From: a virus
DNA length: 37,536 bases
Virus record (IMG/VR): IMGVR_UViG_3300045988_062118
Coordinates: 1 to 37,536 of that record
Strand: one strand, 5' to 3'
This document shows positions 6,391 to 28,523 of the stretch, one piece after another. Each line of letters starts with the position of its first letter. Position 1 is the first letter of the stretch. A model generated the notes under the pieces. The model ran no database searches and was not told the origin of the DNA. It saw nothing but the letters and a program-made list of their open reading frames with translations. A program made the position numbers and the translations under genes.

Positions 6391-7068
6391 TTAATCTAAT
6401 GTATTATCTATCTCATGTGTCACTCGGCACTGCACCACGCCGGATATCATTGTTGTGCTTAATATCTGTGAGTTCGATGTACCTGTCGGTATCTTTCTAA
6501 TATTCTCAGCCATCACATCCGCCGAATCTGTTGGTTCTGTAGCCACTCCTTTTTCAGTGATAGCTGTGGCTATCTTGGTATTTCTATCACTGACAGATTT
6601 TTTTACTTCTTCCATCTCCTTGTAAAGCTGTCCTGCAAGGTCTGTCATATACCGCTCTTCAATCTCACTCTCAACTACTTCACAGCCCTCAAGAACCTTC
6701 ATTCTTGTGAGCTTGGTGTTGATCTCGTTGATGATGTTACCCTCACTATCAAGCTTCTTGAAGCATACAGTGAAGCCGACATTGCCCGGCACTGTACATG
6801 CAGTAGCACCAACAAGCCAATCAAAGGTTATAATGCTTGCATCATCAGAGAGTGTATAATTCTCTATAAAATACACATCTTTCTGCTCTTCTTCATTCAC
6901 ATAGTTGATTGATATCTGATATTCAGTGAGATCTATGCCCTTATACGTTGCCGGCACTTCAAATGTCAGCCGGTTTACATCTTTGTCATGATATACACCG
7001 ATGACCTCGCCAGCCGGCATCTTCACCGTTCTTGTATCTAAATCTATCTTGTATCTTTTATTTTCCAT
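6391..7068 (-). CDS. Hypothetical structural-like protein with BppU-N/Ig-like N-terminus (225 aa)
   Basis: Start reassigned to the ATG at 7068, preceded by GGAGGTGGAG. The track's longer Arg-rich N-terminus overlaps the portal gene. The N-terminus (MENKRYKIDLDTRTVKMPAGEVIGVYHDKDVNRLTFEVP...) loosely resembles baseplate-upper-protein N-domains. Confidence 0.5.
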   Translation of the reverse strand: MENKRYKIDLDTRTVKMPAGEVIGVYHDKDVNRLTFEVPATYKGIDLTEYQISINYVNEEEQKDVYFIENYTLSDDASIITFDWLVGATACTVPGNVGFTVCFKKLDSEGNIINEINTKLTRMKVLEGCEVVESEIEERYMTDLAGQLYKEMEEVKKSVSDRNTKIATAITEKGVATEPTDSADVMAENIRKIPTGTSNSQILSTTMISGVVQCRVTHEIDNTLD

Positions 7069-23178: not shown

Positions 23179-23198
23179 ATGCCTCTCCTTTCTGCTGT

Positions 23199-23213
23199 CC
23201 ATTTTAATTGGAT
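23199..23213. promoter_or_regulatory. Operator-like motif copy 3 (CCATTTTAATTGGAT)
   Basis: Exact copy of the motif in the switch region, located at the cro stop / next-gene junction. Confidence 0.5.
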
Positions 23214-23422
23214 TCAGATGGCAAAAAAATATAGTCTAACGGCATATCATACAGTCTTGACAATTCCTTAGCCTGTGAGATTTTAGGTTCTGATGTACCT
23301 TTTTCCCAACTAACAATAGTCTGCTTACCTACTGCCATATGTTTTGCTACTTCTTCCTGTGTCATTCCTGCATTTACTCTTGCTGCCGCTAAACTAATCT
23401 GGATCTTTTTCTGTGTTTTCAA
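23204..23422 (-). CDS. Cro-like XRE-family HTH regulator
   Basis: HTH segment MTQEEVAKHMAVGKQTIVSWEKG. Divergent from the CI-like gene. Probable TTG start at 23422 after AGGAAGTGAG; the track uses the GTG at 23434. Confidence 0.75.
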   Translation of the reverse strand: MKTQKKIQISLAAARVNAGMTQEEVAKHMAVGKQTIVSWEKGTSEPKISQAKELSRLYDMPLDYIFLPSESN

Positions 23423-23456
23423 TTTTGCTCTCACTTCCTTTCTGTATCATGTTCAC

Positions 23457-23485
23457 ATTGTATATCCATTTTAATTGGATGTCAA
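23457..23485 (-). promoter_or_regulatory. Early lytic promoter (TTGACA-17-TACAAT) with an operator in the spacer
   Basis: Minus strand: TTGACA (23485-23480), a 17-nt spacer containing ATCCAATTAAAATGG, and TACAAT (23462-23457). Confidence 0.7.
23466..23480. promoter_or_regulatory. Operator-like motif copy 1 (CCATTTTAATTGGAT, imperfect palindrome)
   Basis: Lies between the -35 and -10 of the lytic promoter. Confidence 0.6.
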
Positions 23486-23494
23486 TACCAAAAT

Positions 23495-23509
23495 TCATTT
23501 TAATTGAAC
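23495..23509. promoter_or_regulatory. Operator-like motif copy 2 (TCATTTTAATTGAAC)
   Basis: Variant copy between the two divergent promoters. Confidence 0.5.
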
Positions 23510-23515
23510 TTTTTG

Positions 23516-23547
23516 TTGTCAATTATTCAATATTGTTGTATTATAAT
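23516..23547 (+). promoter_or_regulatory. Candidate repressor (lysogenic) promoter
   Basis: TTGTCA (23516-23521), 17 nt, then TATTAT (23539-23544), which overlaps TATAAT (23542-23547). Confidence 0.5.
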
Positions 23548-23575
23548 AATAAGTTTTAAAAGGGGGGTGCACCTT

Positions 23576-23959
23576 ATGCCAGACGATAAACAAAAAGAAG
23601 TGTTTGCAAGAAATTTAAATAAATATTTAGAAAGAAGTGGAAAAACCCAAAAAGAGGTTGCTCAGGCAATTGGAGTTATTCCTACTACATTTAATACTTG
23701 GTGCTTGGCACAAGCTCTACCTAGAATGGGCAAGGTCCAACTTCTTGCTGACTATTTTGGTATAAACAAATCAGATCTTATCGAGGATAACTCGGATACT
23801 GAGTATTATTTAGACGCTGAGACCGCAAAGAAAGCACAAGAGATATTCGAGAACAAGCAGCTCTCTCTTCTCTTCGATGCTGCCAGAGATGCCGATCCAG
23901 AGGATTTAGAGACTGTCCATACTATGTTAATGGCTCTCAAGAATAAAGAGAAACGATAA
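23576..23959 (+). CDS. CI-like XRE-family repressor without a peptidase S24 domain
   Basis: HTH segment KTQKEVAQAIGVIPTTFNTWC. I prefer the ATG at 23576, after AAAGGGGGGTG. The track's 24-aa hydrophobic extension is rejected. Confidence 0.8.
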   Translation: MPDDKQKEVFARNLNKYLERSGKTQKEVAQAIGVIPTTFNTWCLAQALPRMGKVQLLADYFGINKSDLIEDNSDTEYYLDAETAKKAQEIFENKQLSLLFDAARDADPEDLETVHTMLMALKNKEKR

Positions 23960-24007
23960 TGCACATAAAACATCCCATGGATTTTGTTATTGTTTTTCTG
24001 ATTACAT

Positions 24008-24253
24008 TTGAAAGGGATGATTTCTTTGGAATATATAAACGTACAGATGATGGATTTAAAATCTACCAAGATTAAAGAAACCGTGACCAGTAACGAAGAT
24101 GGCTCTTACACTATCTTCCTCAATTCACGATTCACTCAGGAACAACTCAATGACGCTTATATCCACGCTATCGGACACATAGACAGGGACGACTTCAACA
24201 AAGGCTCTGCCGATGTTATTGAGGCTTATGCGCATGGGCTAACTGAATTGTAA
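24008..24253 (+). CDS. ImmA/IrrE-like small protein with a degenerate metal motif (HAIGH instead of HExxH)
   Basis: YTIFLNSRFTQEQLNDAYIHAIGHIDRDDF resembles the short ImmA-like family found next to XRE repressors. The start is uncertain: TTG at 24008, or ATG at 24017 or 24047, all with poor RBSs. Confidence 0.45.
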   Translation: MKGMISLEYINVQMMDLKSTKIKETVTSNEDGSYTIFLNSRFTQEQLNDAYIHAIGHIDRDDFNKGSADVIEAYAHGLTEL

Positions 24254-24333
24254 ATTGGTAAAAACGCATTATCAAGGTCGTGGAACTAAGGGCCAAATTT
24301 TAATAACACCATATATTATGGATAGGATTTTAT

Positions 24334-24555
24334 ATGAGAAAATTTATATTTGAGCATTTGATAACCAATGGTGAGGAAAAATTATTTGATACCGAGGAAT
24401 CTTCTATTGAATATGCGATGATCAAACACTCTAATGAACCTGGAGATATGGTGGTTGTAGAGGTAGACATCACCGAAAAGCAATTACGCGACTACCTTAA
24501 TGAACACATTGAAATTCCCTGCACCGCATGGCGCAGGGATGTTTGGAAGTCTTAA
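24334..24555 (+). CDS. Hypothetical protein (73 aa)
   Basis: ORF with an AGGA RBS on the lysogeny strand. Confidence 0.5.
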   Translation: MRKFIFEHLITNGEEKLFDTEESSIEYAMIKHSNEPGDMVVVEVDITEKQLRDYLNEHIEIPCTAWRRDVWKS

Positions 24556-24635
24556 TCTACTTGTTAACATTGTTATCGCCATGGTGAATGGCTATGATGC
24601 TACTTGTAAACGTCTTATCAAGTATGCTACAAGTA

Positions 24636-24664
24636 TTGCTCTCGTCTCACTGAATAGTTAATAT
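24636..24664 (+). promoter_or_regulatory. Candidate promoter of the accessory operon (TTGCTC-17-TAATAT)
   Basis: Hexamers at 24636-24641 and 24659-24664 with a 17-nt spacer. Confidence 0.35.
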
Positions 24665-24776
24665 GAGCCTATGATGTTCACTATTAAGGAAGTAGACACT
24701 AAGACAGTGAGGATAATAGGTAAAGTTGTTGAATTGAGAGGTAAGTTTTAAACTACACATAAGGGGAGGAATTACA

Positions 24777-25298
24777 ATGTCACTATTTGGACCATCAAAA
24801 AAGGAACTACTTGAATGGCAAACATTTGTTACTGGGAAACCATCAAGCAAACTACTAATGAATAAAGCTCAATTAAAAACGGCAACTCAACAGATTGCTC
24901 AAGACAGCCTAAGAATATCTAACGATTGTGTCAGAATTATCTCTGAAACAATTAAGCCTGATGTATTTTTCTCAAGAATGGACTTGCTATATCATCATAC
25001 ATACAAGTTATCTGTTTGTGAGAAATATATAAAATTCTCAGGTGCATTACCATCACAGGCGTTGGCACAATTTGGACAAGATCATTTTAATGCTGTACAA
25101 GCTTTTATTAACAGATATACCCAAGCCACATACAGCAAAGCTGACACACTAAAGACAACCAAAGGGAAATTGAATCAAGCAGTAAAATTCTATGATTCAC
25201 TTGTCCCTTATTTCAATAATATAGAGCCTCAAAATATACAGATGATTGAAAACATAAAACAATCCATGCTTGCTAATTTTGGAGATCAAAAAAATTAA
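24777..25298 (+). CDS. Hypothetical protein (173 aa), first gene of the accessory operon
   Basis: Strong RBS AAGGGGAGG. Looks helical from its composition. No recognisable motif. Confidence 0.65.
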   Translation: MSLFGPSKKELLEWQTFVTGKPSSKLLMNKAQLKTATQQIAQDSLRISNDCVRIISETIKPDVFFSRMDLLYHHTYKLSVCEKYIKFSGALPSQALAQFGQDHFNAVQAFINRYTQATYSKADTLKTTKGKLNQAVKFYDSLVPYFNNIEPQNIQMIENIKQSMLANFGDQKN

Positions 25299-25351
25299 AT
25301 TCTTATGCACATGGGTTGCAAAAATAATTAACAAATGAAGGGAGAGATTCA

Positions 25352-26920
25352 ATGAATCAAAAACAAGAAAACAAATGGTATTTAAGTACATGGTTCATTG
25401 CAATTTTATGCGCATGCTGGTTTCTTATACTTCCGGCAATCGGTGGCATAGTATTGATGATAATGAAGACCATGGACGAAAAGAAACAAAAGGAAGCCAA
25501 TCAACAAATTATTCAACAGAATGCCCAACTTGTGGCTCAGAATGTTCAGATGAATCAAGCAATGCAAGACATGAATAAGACTATGCAAGATTTAGGGGTG
25601 CATGACCATCAGCAGTCAATGGCTAAGCTTAATCAGGTGAATGCCGAAATATCCGAAAACCTTGCCACTATAGATAAATTGCGTTCAGACATTGCTACAC
25701 TTCAGGCAAAAGATGATAAACTGCAAAAATCAGTAGCGACCCAGGAACGAAAGATCTCTCGTGCTAAGGAGATCTACAGCAGTATTGAATATGCATTAGA
25801 TAACTTCATCACTGCTGACATTCCATATAACGAATGCCGAATTAGCCAATCAGATATTGAGGATGCTAATCTCATTGCCCCATCTGTTATCCTTAAATTA
25901 CATTGTATGGATATAAAAAGCTTGCGAAAAGCATACAGAGAAAACGAGAAATCAATTGACACTCTCAGACAGCAATATGCTATCAGATACACTACTAAAG
26001 CAAACAAAACGATTTACGACCTCATTGTCAAGGGGCTGGAATCTGAGATGCAGAACGTCTTGTACAATTTAAAATATGACAAACTTGACAACGGTATTGA
26101 ACAAATAAAAGATATCTGTGCTAAGTATCTAAAGATTGCAGCTGAAGGTAATCAAACAATTGCCGGAACTCTTACTAAGTTCATAGGTGAAATGGAATAT
26201 CTTTTCATCAATGCCGCAAAGATAGAGTATAACTACTACGTCAAGAAAGAACAGGCAAAGCAAGAACAGCTTGCAATCAAAGAGCAGATGCGTCAGGAAG
26301 CAGAGGAGCGCAAGGCCCTTGAGGCCGAACGTAAAAAAGTGGAGCTTGAAGAGTCAAAATATGAGAATCAGATATCTTCCCTCAAAGAACAGGCGGAAGC
26401 TTCAGAGGGTGAAGCCCTTGCTGCTCTGCAAGCTCGTATCCTTGAACTGCAGGCTCAGCTTGCAGATGTAACAATCAAAAAGGATGAAATAGCAAAGTTG
26501 CAAAATGGTAAGGCTGGTAATGTTTATATTATCAGTAACTTGGGTTCATTTGGTGAGAATGTATTCAAAGTCGGAATGACAAGAAGAATAAATCCACAGG
26601 ATAGAGTTAATGAACTTGGAGATGCTTCTGTTCCGTTCAAATTTGATGTACACAGCTTTATTTTCTCTGATGACGCTTCTGGTCTTGAAACCGAACTTCA
26701 CAAGAGACTTAATGATCGCCGAGTAAACAAGGTAAATCTTAGAAAAGAGTTCTTTAATGTATCAATAGATGAACTTGAAGAACTTGTAAATGAGATCTGC
26801 CCTACTGCAGAGTTCAACAGAACAATGCTTGCTGAAGAATACAGACAGTCGCTGTCAAGTTCTGAAGCATATACCTCTGAATATTCAACAGAGGATGAGA
26901 CAGATGATGAGGATGAATAA
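25352..26920 (+). CDS. Membrane-anchored DUF4041 + T5orf172 (MUG113, GIY-YIG-like) domain protein
   Basis: 522 aa. N-terminal hydrophobic segment (WYLSTWFIAILCACWFLILPAIGGIVLMIM), coiled-coil stretches, and a C-terminal block (GNVYIISN..FKVGMTRR..LETELHKRL..KEFF) matching T5orf172. Acidic tail. Confidence 0.75.
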   Translation: MNQKQENKWYLSTWFIAILCACWFLILPAIGGIVLMIMKTMDEKKQKEANQQIIQQNAQLVAQNVQMNQAMQDMNKTMQDLGVHDHQQSMAKLNQVNAEISENLATIDKLRSDIATLQAKDDKLQKSVATQERKISRAKEIYSSIEYALDNFITADIPYNECRISQSDIEDANLIAPSVILKLHCMDIKSLRKAYRENEKSIDTLRQQYAIRYTTKANKTIYDLIVKGLESEMQNVLYNLKYDKLDNGIEQIKDICAKYLKIAAEGNQTIAGTLTKFIGEMEYLFINAAKIEYNYYVKKEQAKQEQLAIKEQMRQEAEERKALEAERKKVELEESKYENQISSLKEQAEASEGEALAALQARILELQAQLADVTIKKDEIAKLQNGKAGNVYIISNLGSFGENVFKVGMTRRINPQDRVNELGDASVPFKFDVHSFIFSDDASGLETELHKRLNDRRVNKVNLRKEFFNVSIDELEELVNEICPTAEFNRTMLAEEYRQSLSSSEAYTSEYSTEDETDDEDE

Positions 26921-26946
26921 TATCATCTTCACATTATAAAAAAAAT

Positions 26947-26972
26947 CCCCCAGGTGCGGGTACACCTGAGGG
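26947..26972 (+). terminator. GC-rich hairpin after the accessory operon (possible terminator)
   Basis: CCCCCAGGTG-CGGGTA-CACCTGAGGG. An A-run lies upstream and there is no clear T-run downstream on the plus strand. Confidence 0.35.
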
Positions 26973-26988
26973 AAGTTACCCACAAACC

Positions 26989-27039
26989 GAAGGCTTATGA
27001 ATAACAGTGATCGCAAACTATATTATACCATAAGCCTTC
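26989..27039. repeat. Perfect 11-bp inverted repeat (GAAGGCTTATG / CATAAGCCTTC) with a 29-nt spacer upstream of int
   Basis: Read directly from the sequence. Confidence 0.85.
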
Positions 27040-27092
27040 CACTTTTGATAGGCTTATTTTTTATGCCTATTTTTAGATAGGATGGTGATTTT

Positions 27093-28232
27093 ATGTGGTG
27101 TGAAACACAGAAGAATGGAACAGTCAAGTATTGTGAGAGGTACACAGATCCGCTCACAGAGAAGGTGAAGAAGGTCACTGTGACGATGTCTAAGGCATCA
27201 CCGCAGAACAGAAACAAGGCGGCAAGGATCCTTGCTGGGAAGATTGAGAAAGCCGAAACTTCCTCTCCTGTCCGATCAGATACAACGCTAGGGGAGCTGG
27301 CTGATGCTTATATAGCATCATTGCGGCAGTGCAAGAGGAAAGAAAGTACAATTGTTACTGAGAAATCATATATATATCGTTGTGTAAGCACAATCGGTAA
27401 TGATGTCCTCGTTGACAAACTTTCTCCCCGCTATATATATGATCAACTTCTTGCTACCGGTAAAAAAATCAGCACAATAAACGGATATATAAAATATCTG
27501 AAATTCGCTCTAAAATGGGGGGTGAAAAACGACTATCACTCAAATCATGATATACTATTAAAACTCGACTATATCAGCGAAGAGAGCTCCGACGAAATAC
27601 CAGAGGTATATGACATCAGCAATGAATATCTTGAACATGATGAGATAACAAAATTACTTAATTACTTAATAGATAATAACCACTGGCAGGACTACTATAT
27701 ATCCTATTTTCTGATTCTTACAGGCATGAGGATTGGGGAGCTTGTGGCACTTGAAGATTCAGATGTGGATATTACATCTAAAACTATTCGTGTTACCAAG
27801 ACTTACTACCCTGCAACCAAATACGCAACGTCAGCCAAAACGAGTGACTCAATCAGAAATCTTCATATACAACCTGAGCTTCTCTTGCTTATAAAGAAAC
27901 TCCGACTTTGGCGAAAAGAAGCAATGTTTGAAAATGGAATTAAAAGTACACTTTTCATGCCGCACCTCAAGACTGGCAGCTATCTGTCCTACGGAACATA
28001 TAACATACATCTTAAGATAGCATCTTTCGAGGCTATTGGCAGAGAGATAACTCCGCACAAGCTGCGGCACACACACGCATCGATTCTGGCAGAAACTATG
28101 TCAGCAGAACAGATATCCCGCCGATTGGGACATCACGATGACAAAATAACAAAAGCAATATATATTCATATCACAAAAAAAATGAAGCAAAAAGACAATG
28201 CGGCTGTCGACACAATATCAATTATCAACTAA
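27093..28232 (+). CDS. int: Tyrosine integrase
   Basis: TGMRIGEL (Arg), HKLRHTHAS (HxxR) and LGHHDDKITKAIYIH (His/Tyr). The N-terminus (MWCETQKNGTVKYCERYTDP) is typical of Firmicutes phage integrase arm-binding domains. Confidence 0.9.
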   Translation: MWCETQKNGTVKYCERYTDPLTEKVKKVTVTMSKASPQNRNKAARILAGKIEKAETSSPVRSDTTLGELADAYIASLRQCKRKESTIVTEKSYIYRCVSTIGNDVLVDKLSPRYIYDQLLATGKKISTINGYIKYLKFALKWGVKNDYHSNHDILLKLDYISEESSDEIPEVYDISNEYLEHDEITKLLNYLIDNNHWQDYYISYFLILTGMRIGELVALEDSDVDITSKTIRVTKTYYPATKYATSAKTSDSIRNLHIQPELLLLIKKLRLWRKEAMFENGIKSTLFMPHLKTGSYLSYGTYNIHLKIASFEAIGREITPHKLRHTHASILAETMSAEQISRRLGHHDDKITKAIYIHITKKMKQKDNAAVDTISIIN

Positions 28233-28236
28233 AAAA

Positions 28237-28294
28237 ATGACCACTCAGTTTTCACACTGAATGCACACTGAATGGTCATCTTTTATTTTTTTTT
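28237..28294 (+). terminator. Intrinsic terminator after int
   Basis: ATGACCACTCAGT ... ACTGAATGGTCAT (13-bp stem, one mismatch) followed by a T-rich run. Confidence 0.65.
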
Positions 28295-28314
28295 GCCCCT
28301 AAATTGCCCCTAAA
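28289..28314. repeat. 26-bp direct repeat copy 1 (TTTTTTGCCCCTAAATTGCCCCTAAA, contains 2x TTGCCCCTAAA)
   Basis: Exact match to 28498-28523. Confidence 0.95.
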
Positions 28315-28497
28315 GGCTCTCTCACAATTGTCGTACACAGCATAAACCCTTGATTCTTCTAGCTATTCATACATTATAAAATTATACATATTGTTTATTT
28401 TATAATTAATATATTGATATGTCAAAATATCTCAAAATGGCTTAAATACGTTACTTTTTGAAGATACTTCGTGTAATAACATATCATGACAAATCAA

Positions 28498-28523
28498 TTT
28501 TTTGCCCCTAAATTGCCCCTAAA
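28498..28523. repeat. 26-bp direct repeat copy 2
   Basis: Exact match to 28289-28314, 209 bp downstream. Confidence 0.95.

What the first reader, a model, noticed from the sequence alone, without database searches (positions are those of the whole stretch)
24636..26972. Lysogeny-strand two-gene operon (173-aa unknown + membrane-anchored DUF4041/T5orf172 protein): candidate prophage-encoded defence or exclusion system
These are among the few genes on the plus (lysogenic) strand. They sit between the repressor/ImmA-like pair and the integrase, the classic position for cargo expressed from a prophage. Both have strong RBSs (AAGGGGAGG, GAAGGGAGAG). A candidate promoter (TTGCTC-17-TAATAT, 24636-24664) lies upstream and a GC-rich hairpin (26947-26972) lies downstream. 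By eye the block is more AT-rich than the surrounding phage genes. The 522-aa protein combines an N-terminal hydrophobic anchor, long coiled coils, a region I recognise as DUF4041, and a C-terminal T5orf172/MUG113 block (GNVYIISN..FKVGMTRR..ELHKRL) of the GIY-YIG nuclease superfamily, ending in an acidic tail. The 173-aa partner has no motif I can recognise. I know of no established mechanism for this architecture. A membrane-tethered GIY-YIG-like effector paired with an unknown partner fits superinfection exclusion or abortive infection.
Basis: partly seen in the sequence, partly recalled or inferred. Interest (0 to 1): 0.8.

Follow-up and report, generated by a model that had tools for sequence, protein, structure and literature searches.

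The report
Prophage-borne SNIPE-type membrane nuclease defence gene
The 522-aa gene is a gut-bacterial prophage copy of SNIPE (PD-lambda-1), a known single-gene defence in which a membrane-anchored nuclease cuts incoming phage DNA, and the 173-aa gene beside it is a separate, independently shuffled gene of unknown function, not its partner.

Summary
Both ORFs are real: orfA at 24777-25298 (173 aa) and orfB at 25352-26920 (522 aa). They lie on the plus-strand lysogeny block of an excised temperate siphovirus, probably of Lachnospiraceae/Coprococcus.

orfB is a member of the PD-lambda-1/SNIPE defence family:
- It matches the PADLOC model over its full length (E 1e-85).
- It shares 46% identity with experimentally characterised E. 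coli SNIPE across the linker helix and the T5orf172/GIY-YIG nuclease.
- The catalytic Glu is conserved (E414 in E. coli = E446 here).
- It has one N-terminal transmembrane helix.

The two-gene-system idea is not supported. orfA and orfB assort independently:
- 0 of 126 other SNIPE-homologue loci carry an orfA relative, including 19 loci with near-identical SNIPE.
- Close orfA copies (85-98% identical) occur with RhuM/PDC-S05, with other small genes, or directly before the integrase.
- One locus (L151) has the window's arrangement minus exactly the SNIPE cassette.

Other corrections:
- DUF4041 is not detectable in orfB by HMM.
- The proposed promoter scores at chance level and lies in a repressor pseudogene.
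- The hairpin is a minus-strand terminator.

orfA belongs to a large uncharacterised family with a confident all-alpha fold and no match in the PDB.

Verdict: a new member of a known kind, of modest interest.

The parts
23576..23959 (+). HTH (Cro/CI-type) repressor. The likely real start is the ATG at 23576 (127 aa); the mechanical ORF list starts at the TTG at 23504. It is the first gene of the plus-strand lysogeny block.
   Evidence: Pfam HTH_31/HTH_3/HTH_26 and phrog_2967. A 127-aa gene is called at the same place in L136. Divergent promoter-like sites lie at 23516-23544 (+) and 23485-23457 (-). The promoter role is inferred.
24008..24253 (+). 81-aa ORF of unknown function (phrog_20886). 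In most relatives it lies directly upstream of the SNIPE gene.
   Evidence: phrog_20886 E 1e-23, with no Pfam or NCBIfam hit. An orf81-like gene lies just upstream of 30 of 114 SNIPE-homologue loci.
24239..25301 (+). Recombinant patch containing the 73-aa ORF, the S24-repressor pseudogene remnant and orfA. It is absent from relatives that carry near-identical SNIPE. It is flanked by an imperfect 13-bp repeat, CTTATGC(G/A)CATGG, at 24225-24237 and 25302-25314.
   Evidence: In L058-L073 window position 24238 is joined directly to 25302. In L057 position 24555 is joined to 25325.
24334..24555 (+). 73-aa ORF of unknown function. It is a mobile small gene that lies downstream of orfA in L003.
   Evidence: No family hit. 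The homologue in L003 at 6647-6865 is 74% identical at nucleotide level.
24567..24751 (+). Pseudogene remnant of the C-terminal ~60 residues of a LexA/S24-type repressor, with an in-frame stop at 24659-24661.
   Evidence: 94% nucleotide identity to the 3' end of the intact 218-aa S24 repressor gene of L001. Translation comparison.
24777..25298 (+). orfA, 173 aa. It is a soluble all-alpha protein from a large uncharacterised family (phrog_7974) and an independent lysogeny-module gene.
   Evidence: 544 cluster representatives at E<=1e-3. phrog_7974 E 4e-18. No Pfam, PADLOC or NCBIfam hit. AF2 pLDDT 95.8 with 7 helices. No PDB fold match (best E 0.05, TM<0.4). BFVD matches are uncharacterised phage proteins only. 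No hydrophobic segment.
25302..25343 (+). Conserved 42-bp leader with the RBS. It is shared upstream of alternative cargo genes (SNIPE here, RhuM/PDC-S05 in L001).
   Evidence: 95% identical to L001 6560-6601, immediately upstream of the RhuM gene.
25352..26920 (+). orfB, 522 aa, a SNIPE / PD-lambda-1 family membrane-anchored nuclease. Its layout is: TM helix at about residues 12-38; coiled-coil helices to about 154; a helical central domain at about 166-300; a long linker helix at about 268-385; a T5orf172/GIY-YIG nuclease at about 386-490; and an acidic tail at 491-522.
   Evidence: PADLOC PDLC03976 E 1.3e-85 (residues 32-511 on model positions 13-480 of 491). phrog_1847 E 2e-101. Pfam T5orf172 and MUG113. 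46% identity to E. coli SNIPE over residues 309-502, E 4e-52. AF2 secondary structure. Hydropathy.
25385..25465 (+). Codons for the N-terminal transmembrane helix (residues 12-38, STWFIAILCACWFLILPAIGGIVLMIM). It is followed by a Lys-rich stretch, KTMDEKKQKE.
   Evidence: Kyte-Doolittle 19-residue windows above 1.6 occur only at window starts 9-24, with a maximum of 2.53. AF2 helix from residue 12.
26687..26689 (+). GAA codon of Glu446, the counterpart of the catalytic E414 of E. coli SNIPE.
   Evidence: The published E414A primer oDS93 encodes DAPSL[A]KKLHDVF. BLASTP aligns DAPSLEKKLH with DASGLETELH. E446 is invariant in 27 diverse homologues.
26946..26973 (-). Intrinsic-terminator hairpin oriented for leftward (minus-strand) transcription. 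It marks the right-hand boundary of the cargo slot and is conserved whatever the cargo.
   Evidence: 12-bp stem followed by TTTTTTTT on the minus strand. Minus strand -31 kcal/mol, z -4.4; plus strand -18.8 kcal/mol, z -2.0. Homology with the RhuM-bearing and cargo-less loci resumes at 26939-26943. The stem is kept while the loop differs in L151.
27093..28232 (+). Tyrosine integrase, 379 aa.
   Evidence: Pfam Phage_integrase E 7e-20. Followed by host genes in the integrated relatives L001-L006.
28289..28523 (.). Probable attP. Two perfect 26-nt direct repeats (28289-28314 and 28498-28523) flank an AT-rich inverted repeat (28360-28419). Homology with integrated prophages ends at about 28394.
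   Evidence: Roles as arm sites and core are inferred.

Best explanation
orfB is a single-gene SNIPE (PD-lambda-1) type defence cassette carried by a temperate siphovirus of a Lachnospiraceae gut bacterium.

Inferred mechanism, by homology with E. coli SNIPE:
- The protein is made in the lysogen, most likely by read-through of the plus-strand lysogeny transcript, since no convincing promoter of its own was found.
- Its N-terminal helix anchors it in the cytoplasmic membrane, with the rest of the protein in the cytoplasm. This keeps the nuclease away from the chromosome.
- When another long-tailed phage injects DNA, the central helical domain and linker place the C-terminal T5orf172/GIY-YIG nuclease (catalytic Glu446) at the injection site, and the incoming DNA is cut during entry.
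- The resident prophage is not harmed, because DNA already inside the cell is not a substrate.

orfA is not part of this system. It is a separate lysogeny-module gene of unknown function. It was brought next to the SNIPE cassette by recombination, together with a fragment of an S24-type repressor gene. In the S24-repressor relatives its start codon lies 25 bp after the repressor's stop codon, so it is probably co-transcribed with the repressor there (inferred from spacing).

The place between the immunity genes and the integrase is a cargo slot. It is bounded by a conserved 42-bp leader and a terminator hairpin, and it holds alternative single-gene cassettes: SNIPE, RhuM/PDC-S05, small ORFs, or nothing.

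Shown here: family membership, architecture, conservation of the catalytic residue, and independent assortment of orfA and orfB. Inferred: expression, topology, the target, and the mechanism in this host.
For: Family and architecture:
- PADLOC PD-Lambda-1 models match over the full length (E 1.3e-85 and 3.7e-79).
- Pfam T5orf172 and MUG113 match. phrog_1847 matches at 2e-101.
- E. coli SNIPE was recovered through the paper's E414A primer. BLASTP gives 46% identity over linker plus nuclease, E 4e-52, with E414 aligned to E446.
- Y392, G408, R411, R412, E446, H450 and N459 are invariant across 27 homologues from several phyla.
- There is a single N-terminal hydrophobic helix.

Published mechanism and single-gene sufficiency:
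- Saxton et al. 2026, PMC13190303, which also shows that prophage induction is unaffected.
- Vassallo et al. 2022, PMC9519451.
- A Gram-positive homologue is active against siphoviruses in S. thermophilus.

Independence of orfA:
- 0 of 126 SNIPE-homologue loci have an orfA-family gene within the up-to-6-kb flanks fetched (114 of them include at least 1.5 kb upstream).
- 19 loci with near-identical SNIPE lack orfA.
- A 98%-identical orfA is followed by RhuM or by orf73.
- Copies 85-97% identical are followed directly by the integrase or by a 205-aa gene.
- L151 equals the window minus exactly positions 25294-26938.
- The alternative cargo RhuM is PADLOC candidate PDC-S05 (E 8e-158).

Carrier phage: it has a tape measure protein, Dit, major tail protein and endolysin.
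Against: - The central domain, which in E. coli SNIPE is DUF4041 and is required for defence, is not recognisable in orfB. Pfam gives no hit, and the isolated segment 135-304 gives no PD-Lambda-1 hit. Profile-profile E-values are 0.04 and 0.11. About 263 of the 286 bits of the PADLOC score come from the nuclease and linker.
- The AF2 model is only moderately confident (pLDDT 69.6) and is weakest in the nuclease domain.
- The host is Gram-positive-type, so the E. coli partners need not apply.
- The exact orfA sequence is followed by SNIPE in 9 of the 10 places shown. A further 12 similar places were not shown. A functional link in this abundant lineage is therefore not excluded.
- Expression in the lysogen was not tested.
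Confidence: 0.72

Rival explanations
1. orfA and orfB form a two-gene defence or exclusion system, with orfA acting as sensor, regulator, or antidote/immunity for the membrane nuclease.
For: - The genes are adjacent and on the same strand, 53 bp apart, and both have strong RBSs.
- The exact orfA is followed by the 522-aa gene in 9 of 10 shown metagenome contigs, across two repressor types and two integration sites.
- orfA has a confident fold with no PDB match and no known function, so no other role can be assigned to it.
Against: - All combinations exist: SNIPE without orfA (19 near-identical loci), and orfA without SNIPE (L001-L007, L146-L153).
- 0 of 126 SNIPE-homologue loci carry an orfA-family gene.
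- The 46 longer orfA-family proteins scanned carry DUF4236, TM2, TPR and SAP as added domains, and none carries T5orf172.
- E. coli and S. thermophilus homologues work alone.
- orfA arrived attached to a repressor-gene fragment, which is a recombination scar.
Confidence: 0.07
2. orfB is a selfish, free-standing T5orf172 homing-endonuclease-like gene. It spreads by cutting empty sites, and that explains its exact presence/absence polymorphism.
For: - T5orf172 genes in phages sit at boundaries of genetic exchange and behave as homing endonuclease genes (PMC10448857).
- The cassette is present or absent with exact boundaries between conserved flanks.
Against: - The transmembrane anchor, about 350 residues of coiled coil and helical domain, and full-length similarity to SNIPE are not features of homing endonucleases.
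- The same slot holds unrelated cargo (RhuM/PDC-S05, a 205-aa gene, orf73), so the polymorphism belongs to the slot and not to this gene.
- Removing the TM from SNIPE makes it toxic through non-specific chromosome cleavage.
Confidence: 0.04
3. orfB is a membrane-tethered nuclease effector that works by abortive infection. On sensing infection it is released or activated and degrades host as well as phage DNA.
For: - The central domain differs from DUF4041, so targeting in this clade may differ.
- SNIPE lacking its TM is highly toxic, so a release-based suicide mechanism is conceivable.
Against: - E. coli SNIPE acts directly on DNA during injection, and the cells survive.
- The linker and nuclease are 46% identical, and the anchor is retained.
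Confidence: 0.1

Closest known systems
E. coli SNIPE (= PD-lambda-1; WP_000195116.1, annotated 'DUF4041 domain-containing protein'); Vassallo et al. 2022 (PMC9519451), Saxton et al. 2026 (PMC13190303)
   Same: - Similar size (500 against 522 aa).
- The same order of parts: N-terminal TM helix, coiled coil, central helical domain, long linker helix, T5orf172/GIY-YIG nuclease.
- 46% identity over linker plus nuclease, with the catalytic Glu conserved.
- A single gene carried in a prophage. The E. coli copy lies in a lambdoid prophage between ren/P and the nin region, and is present in 131 of 5426 complete genomes.
   Different: - The central domain is not detectably DUF4041.
- The N-terminal 300 residues show no significant pairwise similarity.
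- orfB has an acidic C-terminal tail.
- The host is a Gram-positive-type Lachnospiraceae, and the gene sits in the repressor-integrase module rather than the replication/nin region.
- No function has been tested.
Streptococcus thermophilus PD-Lambda-1 (EU01 allele), bioRxiv 10.1101/2024.10.22.618286
   Same: It is a Firmicutes homologue detected with the same models. It is active as a single gene with its native promoter against siphoviruses (more than 3 logs), on a plasmid or in the chromosome.
   Different: It is chromosomal rather than prophage-borne in that study. A 98.5%-identical allele was inactive, which shows that activity cannot be assumed from homology.
Prophage superinfection-exclusion proteins acting at DNA entry (for example Ltp of S. 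thermophilus phage TP-J34, Sie of lactococcal P335 phages). This comparison is from my own knowledge.
   Same: They are prophage-encoded, expressed from the lysogeny module near the repressor and integrase, located at the membrane, and block incoming siphovirus DNA.
   Different: Those proteins have no nuclease; they block injection rather than cutting the DNA. Some relatives of this phage carry a 165-aa lipoprotein upstream of orfA (L146-L150, L152). Its function was not tested.
Free-standing T5orf172 nuclease genes of phages (PMC10448857)
   Same: They share the T5orf172/MUG113 GIY-YIG-like catalytic domain.
   Different: They are small soluble proteins with DNA-binding domains that act as homing or anti-satellite nucleases. 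They have no membrane anchor and no long coiled coil.

Membership tests
SNIPE / PD-lambda-1 defence system | The whole protein matches the family's profile HMMs | tested here: met
   PADLOC PDLC03976 E 1.3e-85 (one stretch, residues 32-511 on model positions 13-480 of 491) and PDLC03977 E 3.7e-79. Caveat: 221 + 42 of the 286 bits come from the nuclease and linker segments.
SNIPE / PD-lambda-1 defence system | N-terminal single-pass transmembrane anchor within the first 70 residues | tested here: met
   The only hydrophobic stretch is at residues ~12-38 (KD19 maximum 2.53). AF2 predicts a helix from residue 12. The paper reports a predicted TM in 66% of homologues. N-out/C-in topology is only suggested by the Lys-rich stretch after the helix.
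SNIPE / PD-lambda-1 defence system | Central DUF4041 (PF13250) domain, required for defence and DNA binding in E. coli SNIPE | tested here: inconclusive
   There is no Pfam hit on the whole protein or on segment 135-304. None of the close Firmicutes-type homologues carries PF13250, whereas 7 of 27 diverse homologues and E. coli SNIPE do. Profile-profile comparison of the central regions alone gives E 0.04 and 0.11. However, both runs, and the full-length alignment, pair the same segment (orfB ~220-256) with the DUF4041 core. A helical domain sits at the equivalent position.
SNIPE / PD-lambda-1 defence system | Linker alpha-helix followed by a C-terminal GIY-YIG-type nuclease with the catalytic Glu (E414) | tested here: met
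   46% identity over orfB 309-502 against E. coli 276-471, E 4e-52. E414 aligns with E446. E446 is invariant in 27 homologues.
SNIPE / PD-lambda-1 defence system | Acts as a single gene with no obligate partner | tested here: met
   The cassette is present without orfA in 19 near-identical loci and in all 126 homologue loci examined. Exact presence/absence polymorphism is seen in L151. This is genomic evidence only.
SNIPE / PD-lambda-1 defence system | Protects against siphoviruses by cutting DNA during injection; associates with the tape measure protein and an inner-membrane entry factor | not testable with these tools
   This needs plaque assays, tracking of labelled DNA, and proximity labelling.
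GIY-YIG nuclease superfamily (T5orf172/MUG113 branch) | Pfam domain match above the gathering threshold, and the beta-beta-alpha-beta-alpha core with conserved Tyr, Arg, Glu and Asn | tested here: met
   PF13455 68.5 bits (cut-off 22.3) and PF10544 62.8 bits (cut-off 20). AF2 elements are E390-395, E404-410, H416-424, E433-438 and H442-456, although pLDDT is low there. Y392, R411, R412, E446 and N459 are invariant. Foldseek hits are T5orf172 proteins.
Two-gene defence system (orfA + orfB) | The two genes co-occur across genomes beyond a single lineage | tested here: not met
   0 of 126 SNIPE-homologue loci have an orfA-family gene. orfA relatives occur with RhuM, orf73, a 205-aa gene, or nothing before the integrase. 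Co-occurrence is confined to one abundant prophage lineage.
orfA family (phrog_7974; no curated family) | A match to any described protein family, defence model or solved fold | tested here: not met
   No Pfam, NCBIfam or PADLOC hit. Only PHROGs of unknown function match. The best PDB sequence hit is 2i9i (a hypothetical protein) at E 2e-4 over 62 residues. Foldseek against the PDB gives a best E of 0.05.

The most novel reading that the evidence does not exclude
There are two linked possibilities.

(a) The large Firmicutes clade that includes orfB may have replaced DUF4041 with a different helical recognition domain. That domain would be tuned to the DNA-injection machinery of Gram-positive siphoviruses. 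This would make the clade a distinct SNIPE variant, and its specificity determinants could be read from natural diversity.

(b) orfA may represent a widespread, uncharacterised lysogeny-module gene family. It has 544 clusters at 50% identity and a confident all-alpha fold with no PDB match, and it is sometimes fused to DUF4236, TM2, zinc-ribbon or SAP modules. It could itself be a new prophage-encoded exclusion or defence function, or it could tune the neighbouring cargo.
Probability: 0.25. Interest if true: 0.5.

Novelty: new member of a known kind. Interest (0 to 1): 0.3.

Why it matters
It places a recently characterised defence mechanism, cutting phage DNA at the membrane during injection, inside a temperate siphovirus of abundant human-gut Lachnospiraceae. 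There it would act as superinfection exclusion for the lysogen.

The comparison set gives a clean natural experiment. One cargo slot, bounded by a conserved leader and a terminator, holds SNIPE, a RhuM/PDC-S05 candidate, other small genes, or nothing. That could guide the search for further single-gene defences in gut prophages.

It also shows that the 'DUF4041' label does not cover the central domain of a large Firmicutes branch of the family.

For the scan itself, the main value is corrective: the apparent two-gene system is an accidental neighbourhood.

Tried and rejected
- Pfam, NCBIfam and PADLOC on orfA gave nothing.
- A profile search of the PDB with the orfA family gave only a marginal hit to a hypothetical protein, 2i9i. 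I did not follow it up, because it carries no functional information.
- Foldseek of the orfA model against the PDB gave only generic helical-repeat resemblance (14-3-3-like, TM<0.4). I rejected this as a match.
- Foldseek of the orfB model against BFVD was meant to find named DUF4041 proteins covering the central domain. It returned only T5orf172-domain matches and one misnamed 'helicase'.
- A profile search of the PDB with the orfB family returned only coiled-coil and OXA-10 noise.
The single-protein scan found only 4 IMG/VR loci.
- I first read the orfA+SNIPE juxtaposition as unique to the window. That was wrong and is corrected: the arrangement recurs in one abundant lineage. The independence argument now rests on the existence of all other combinations.
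- I looked for a promoter in the shared 42-bp leader by eye and found none convincing.


Full report
**1. What is in the sequence**

The window has one plus-strand block, 23504-28232, inside an otherwise minus-strand phage genome. The block contains, in order:
- an HTH repressor, with a probable start at 23576;
- an 81-aa ORF (24008-24253);
- a 73-aa ORF (24334-24555);
- orfA (24777-25298, 173 aa);
- orfB (25352-26920, 522 aa);
- a tyrosine integrase (27093-28232).

The rest of the window encodes a tape measure protein, Dit, minor and major tail proteins, an endolysin, terminase, portal and major head protein. The element is therefore a temperate siphovirus-type phage.

Homology with integrated relatives ends at about 28394. 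That point lies between two perfect 26-nt direct repeats and inside an AT-rich inverted repeat. After it the window continues with phage genes. The window is therefore the excised or circular form with an intact attP; the site roles are inferred.

The closest genomic copies of orfB are in an uncultured Coprococcus sp. (99%) and other Lachnospiraceae.

**2.

Correct:
- the ORFs and the RBS strings;
- the position between repressor and integrase;
- the hydrophobic N-terminus, which holds the only windows with KD19>1.6 (residues ~9-42, maximum 2.53);
- the long helices;
- the T5orf172/MUG113 domain;
- the acidic tail (10 D/E in the last 25 residues).

Not upheld:
- DUF4041. See section 4.
- The promoter. 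TTGCTC-17-TAATAT matches 7 of 12 consensus positions and fell below the scan threshold. Promoter-like sites occur at chance frequency in the region (18 found, 19.1 +/- 4.5 expected).
- The promoter's location. It lies within 24567-24751, which is a pseudogene remnant of the last ~60 codons of an S24/LexA-type repressor. The remnant is 94% identical to the intact gene in related prophages and is interrupted by a stop at 24659-24661.
- The hairpin's polarity. On the minus strand the hairpin at 26946-26973 has a 12-bp stem followed by U8 (-31 kcal/mol, z -4.4). On the plus strand it is preceded by A8, has no U tract, and folds at -18.8 kcal/mol (z -2.0). It is better suited to stopping leftward transcription (antisense to int) than to ending the orfA-orfB transcript.
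- AT-richness as a special feature of the pair. The whole lysogeny block is AT-rich (GC 0.35-0.40 against 0.42-0.44 elsewhere). Only orfA (0.331) stands out; orfB (0.387) matches its neighbours.

**3. Identity of orfB**

- orfB matches the two PADLOC PD-Lambda-1 models over its full length (E 1.3e-85 and 3.7e-79) and phrog_1847 (E 2e-101).
- PD-lambda-1 was found by functional selection in E. coli. [quoted passage not shown]
- It has since been characterised as SNIPE. SNIPE is a constitutively inner-membrane-anchored nuclease with its N-terminus outside and the rest in the cytoplasm. [quoted passage not shown] - E414A and deletion of DUF4041 abolish defence. Removal of the TM makes it toxic. 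Induction of a resident lambda prophage is unaffected (PMC13190303).
- I recovered the E. coli gene by searching the published E414A primer against complete E. coli genomes. It hit 131 of 5426 genomes. The gene encodes a 500-aa 'DUF4041 domain-containing protein' and lies inside a lambdoid prophage.
- BLASTP of orfB against it gives 46% identity over orfB 309-502, E 4e-52. E414 aligns with Glu446 (codon 26687-26689).
- Y392, G408, R411, R412, E446, H450 and N459 are invariant in 27 homologues from Firmicutes, Proteobacteria, Myxococcota and Planctomycetota.
- A Firmicutes homologue protects S. thermophilus against siphoviruses as a single gene.
- orfB has more than 7100 homologues at E<=1e-5. 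Close ones are named 'GIY-YIG nuclease family protein [Lachnospiraceae bacterium]'.

**4. The central domain**

- Pfam PF13250 hits E. coli SNIPE at residues 198-252 (E 1e-19) and 7 of 27 diverse homologues.
- It does not hit orfB, any of the close homologues, or the other Firmicutes-type proteins tested.
- When orfB was scanned in pieces, the PD-Lambda-1 signal came from the nuclease segment (221 bits) and the linker helix (42 bits). Residues 135-304 gave no hit.
- Profile-profile comparison of the central regions alone gave E 0.04 with 11 template sequences and E 0.11 with 41 template sequences. Neither is significant.
- Both runs, and the full-length global alignment, paired the same stretch (orfB ~220-256, YDLIVKGLESEMQNVLYNLKYDKLD) with the DUF4041 core (IRLTTRAFNNECDAAISNCTWKNIT).
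- AF2 predicts a well-ordered helical domain at the equivalent position (pLDDT 82-90 for residues 190-300).
- I therefore score DUF4041 as inconclusive. It may be a remote homologue or a replacement. The SNIPE paper itself reports that this domain is less conserved than the nuclease.

**5. Is orfA a partner?**

orfA has no Pfam, NCBIfam or PADLOC match and belongs to PHROGs of unknown function. An exhaustive HMMER search found 544 cluster representatives. The ~155-aa domain occurs alone or fused to DUF4236 (12 of 46 long members), TM2 (7 of 46), TPR or SAP. It is never fused to T5orf172. AF2 gives a very confident seven-helix model (pLDDT 95.8). That model has no significant match in the PDB and matches only uncharacterised phage proteins in BFVD.

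Genomic context is decisive.
- Starting from orfB: an orfA-family HMM found no hit in any of 126 loci carrying SNIPE homologues. The loci were fetched with up to 6 kb of flank, and 114 have at least 1.5 kb upstream.
- In 18 near-identical loci, window position ~24238-24241 is joined directly to 25302. In L057, position 24555 is joined to 25325.
- Starting from orfA: a 98%-identical orfA follows an intact S24 repressor, starting 25 bp after its stop. It is followed by a RhuM gene, or by a homologue of the 73-aa ORF, and then by the integrase.
- Copies 85-97% identical follow a lipoprotein gene and are followed directly by the integrase, or by an unrelated 205-aa gene.
- L151 has the window's arrangement with positions 25294-26938 missing, which is exactly the SNIPE cassette.
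- A 44%-identical relative lies next to a serine recombinase, with no SNIPE.

One correction to my first impression is needed. The exact orfA sequence is very common in gut metagenomes (621 index blocks). In 9 of the 10 places shown it is followed by the 522-aa gene, so the pair recurs in one abundant lineage. Because every other combination also exists, I read that as shared descent, not coupling.

The segment 24239-25301 carries the repressor-gene fragment with orfA and is bracketed by an imperfect 13-bp repeat. That is the footprint of recombination between two phage lineages.

**6. The slot**

The 42 bp before orfB (25302-25343, including the RBS) are 95% identical to the sequence before the RhuM gene in L001. 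Homology resumes at the hairpin (26939-26943) in all arrangements. In L151 the hairpin stem is kept while the loop differs.

The RhuM alternative is a full-length match to PADLOC candidate PDC-S05 (E 8e-158). The site is thus a cargo slot that takes single-gene cassettes, at least two of them defence-related.

**7. Mechanism proposed**

- Shown: family membership, domain order, the membrane-anchor signal, catalytic residues, and modular independence.
- Inferred from the family: the protein is anchored in the membrane of the lysogen, is kept from the chromosome by that anchoring, and cuts DNA of superinfecting long-tailed phages as it enters. The resident prophage is spared, including on induction.
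- Inferred from gene order: expression comes by read-through from the lysogeny promoter near 23516-23544. No plus-strand terminator or convincing promoter lies between the repressor and orfB.
- Unknown: which host membrane factor and which phage feature the N-terminal and central regions recognise in a Gram-positive-type cell.

**8. Rivals**

- Two-gene system: 0.07.
- Abortive-infection effector: 0.10.
- Homing endonuclease: 0.04.

Details are in the rival section.

**9. Verdict**

orfB is a new member of a known, recently explained defence family. The paired-system hypothesis is not supported. orfA is an uncharacterised lysogeny-module gene that may deserve its own look.

Interest is modest at 0.3. 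The most novel reading not excluded is a distinct central recognition domain in the Firmicutes branch, and/or a defence or exclusion role for the orfA family. I put its probability at about 0.25.

Noticed in passing
window 24567-24751: This is a pseudogene remnant of the C-terminal ~60 codons of an S24/LexA-type repressor, with an in-frame TAA at 24659-24661. It travels with orfA as a recombination scar.
   Followed up: yes
window 26946-26973: The hairpin is a textbook intrinsic terminator only on the minus strand (U8 tail, -31 kcal/mol). It would stop transcription running antisense through int towards the cargo. The stem is conserved and the loop varies between relatives (window CGGGTA, L151 CTACCAA).
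   Followed up: partly
window 28289-28314 and 28498-28523; 28360-28419: A perfect 26-nt direct repeat, TTTTTTGCCCCTAAATTGCCCCTAAA (itself two TTGCCCCTAAA units), occurs 209 bp apart. The copies flank an AT-rich inverted repeat where homology with integrated prophages ends (~28394). These are probably integrase arm sites and the attP core. The window contains no tRNA gene.
   Followed up: partly
L001 6609-7619 (also L002, L004-L006): In relatives, the same slot downstream of orfA holds a 336-aa RhuM-family gene instead of SNIPE. It is a full-length match to PADLOC defence candidate PDC-S05 (E 8e-158).
   Followed up: partly
L147 3458-3955 (also L146, L148-L150, L152, L153): A 165-aa predicted lipoprotein (signal peptide with an LTGC lipobox, then a Thr/Glu-rich linker) lies between the 81-aa ORF and orfA in some relatives. 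This is reminiscent of prophage Ltp-type exclusion lipoproteins. It has no PADLOC hit.
   Followed up: no
L153 5603-6220: A further alternative cargo lies between orfA and int: a 205-aa protein with no PADLOC hit.
   Followed up: no
L145 4576-5708: This contig is 100% identical to window 23179-26168. It then has a deletion reaching to about window 27908 that fuses a truncated SNIPE gene to the 3' end of int. It looks like a decaying prophage in which both genes are inactivated.
   Followed up: partly
It contains HAIGH where ImmA/IrrE peptidases have HExxH, so it lacks the catalytic Glu. It is the usual immediate upstream neighbour of SNIPE in this phage group (30 of 114 loci).
   Followed up: partly
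L135 4776-6278 (E. coli CFSAN061770 chromosome): The characterised E. coli SNIPE gene is itself prophage cargo. It lies in opposite orientation to its neighbours, between ren/replication P and the nin region of a lambdoid prophage. It is present in 131 of 5426 complete E. coli genomes. One UniRef name for DUF4041 proteins already reads 'SNIPE associated domain' (P0286).
   Followed up: partly
orfA family (P0007-P0154): The orfA domain is fused in other proteins to DUF4236 (12 of 46 long members), TM2 (7 of 46), TPR, SAP, zinc ribbons, and once each to Phage_Mu_F and minor-capsid domains. Invariant residues in the 74-sequence alignment are F65, R67 and T127, and the consensus motifs are T..PDVFFSR and LKT.KGK.N.
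   Followed up: partly
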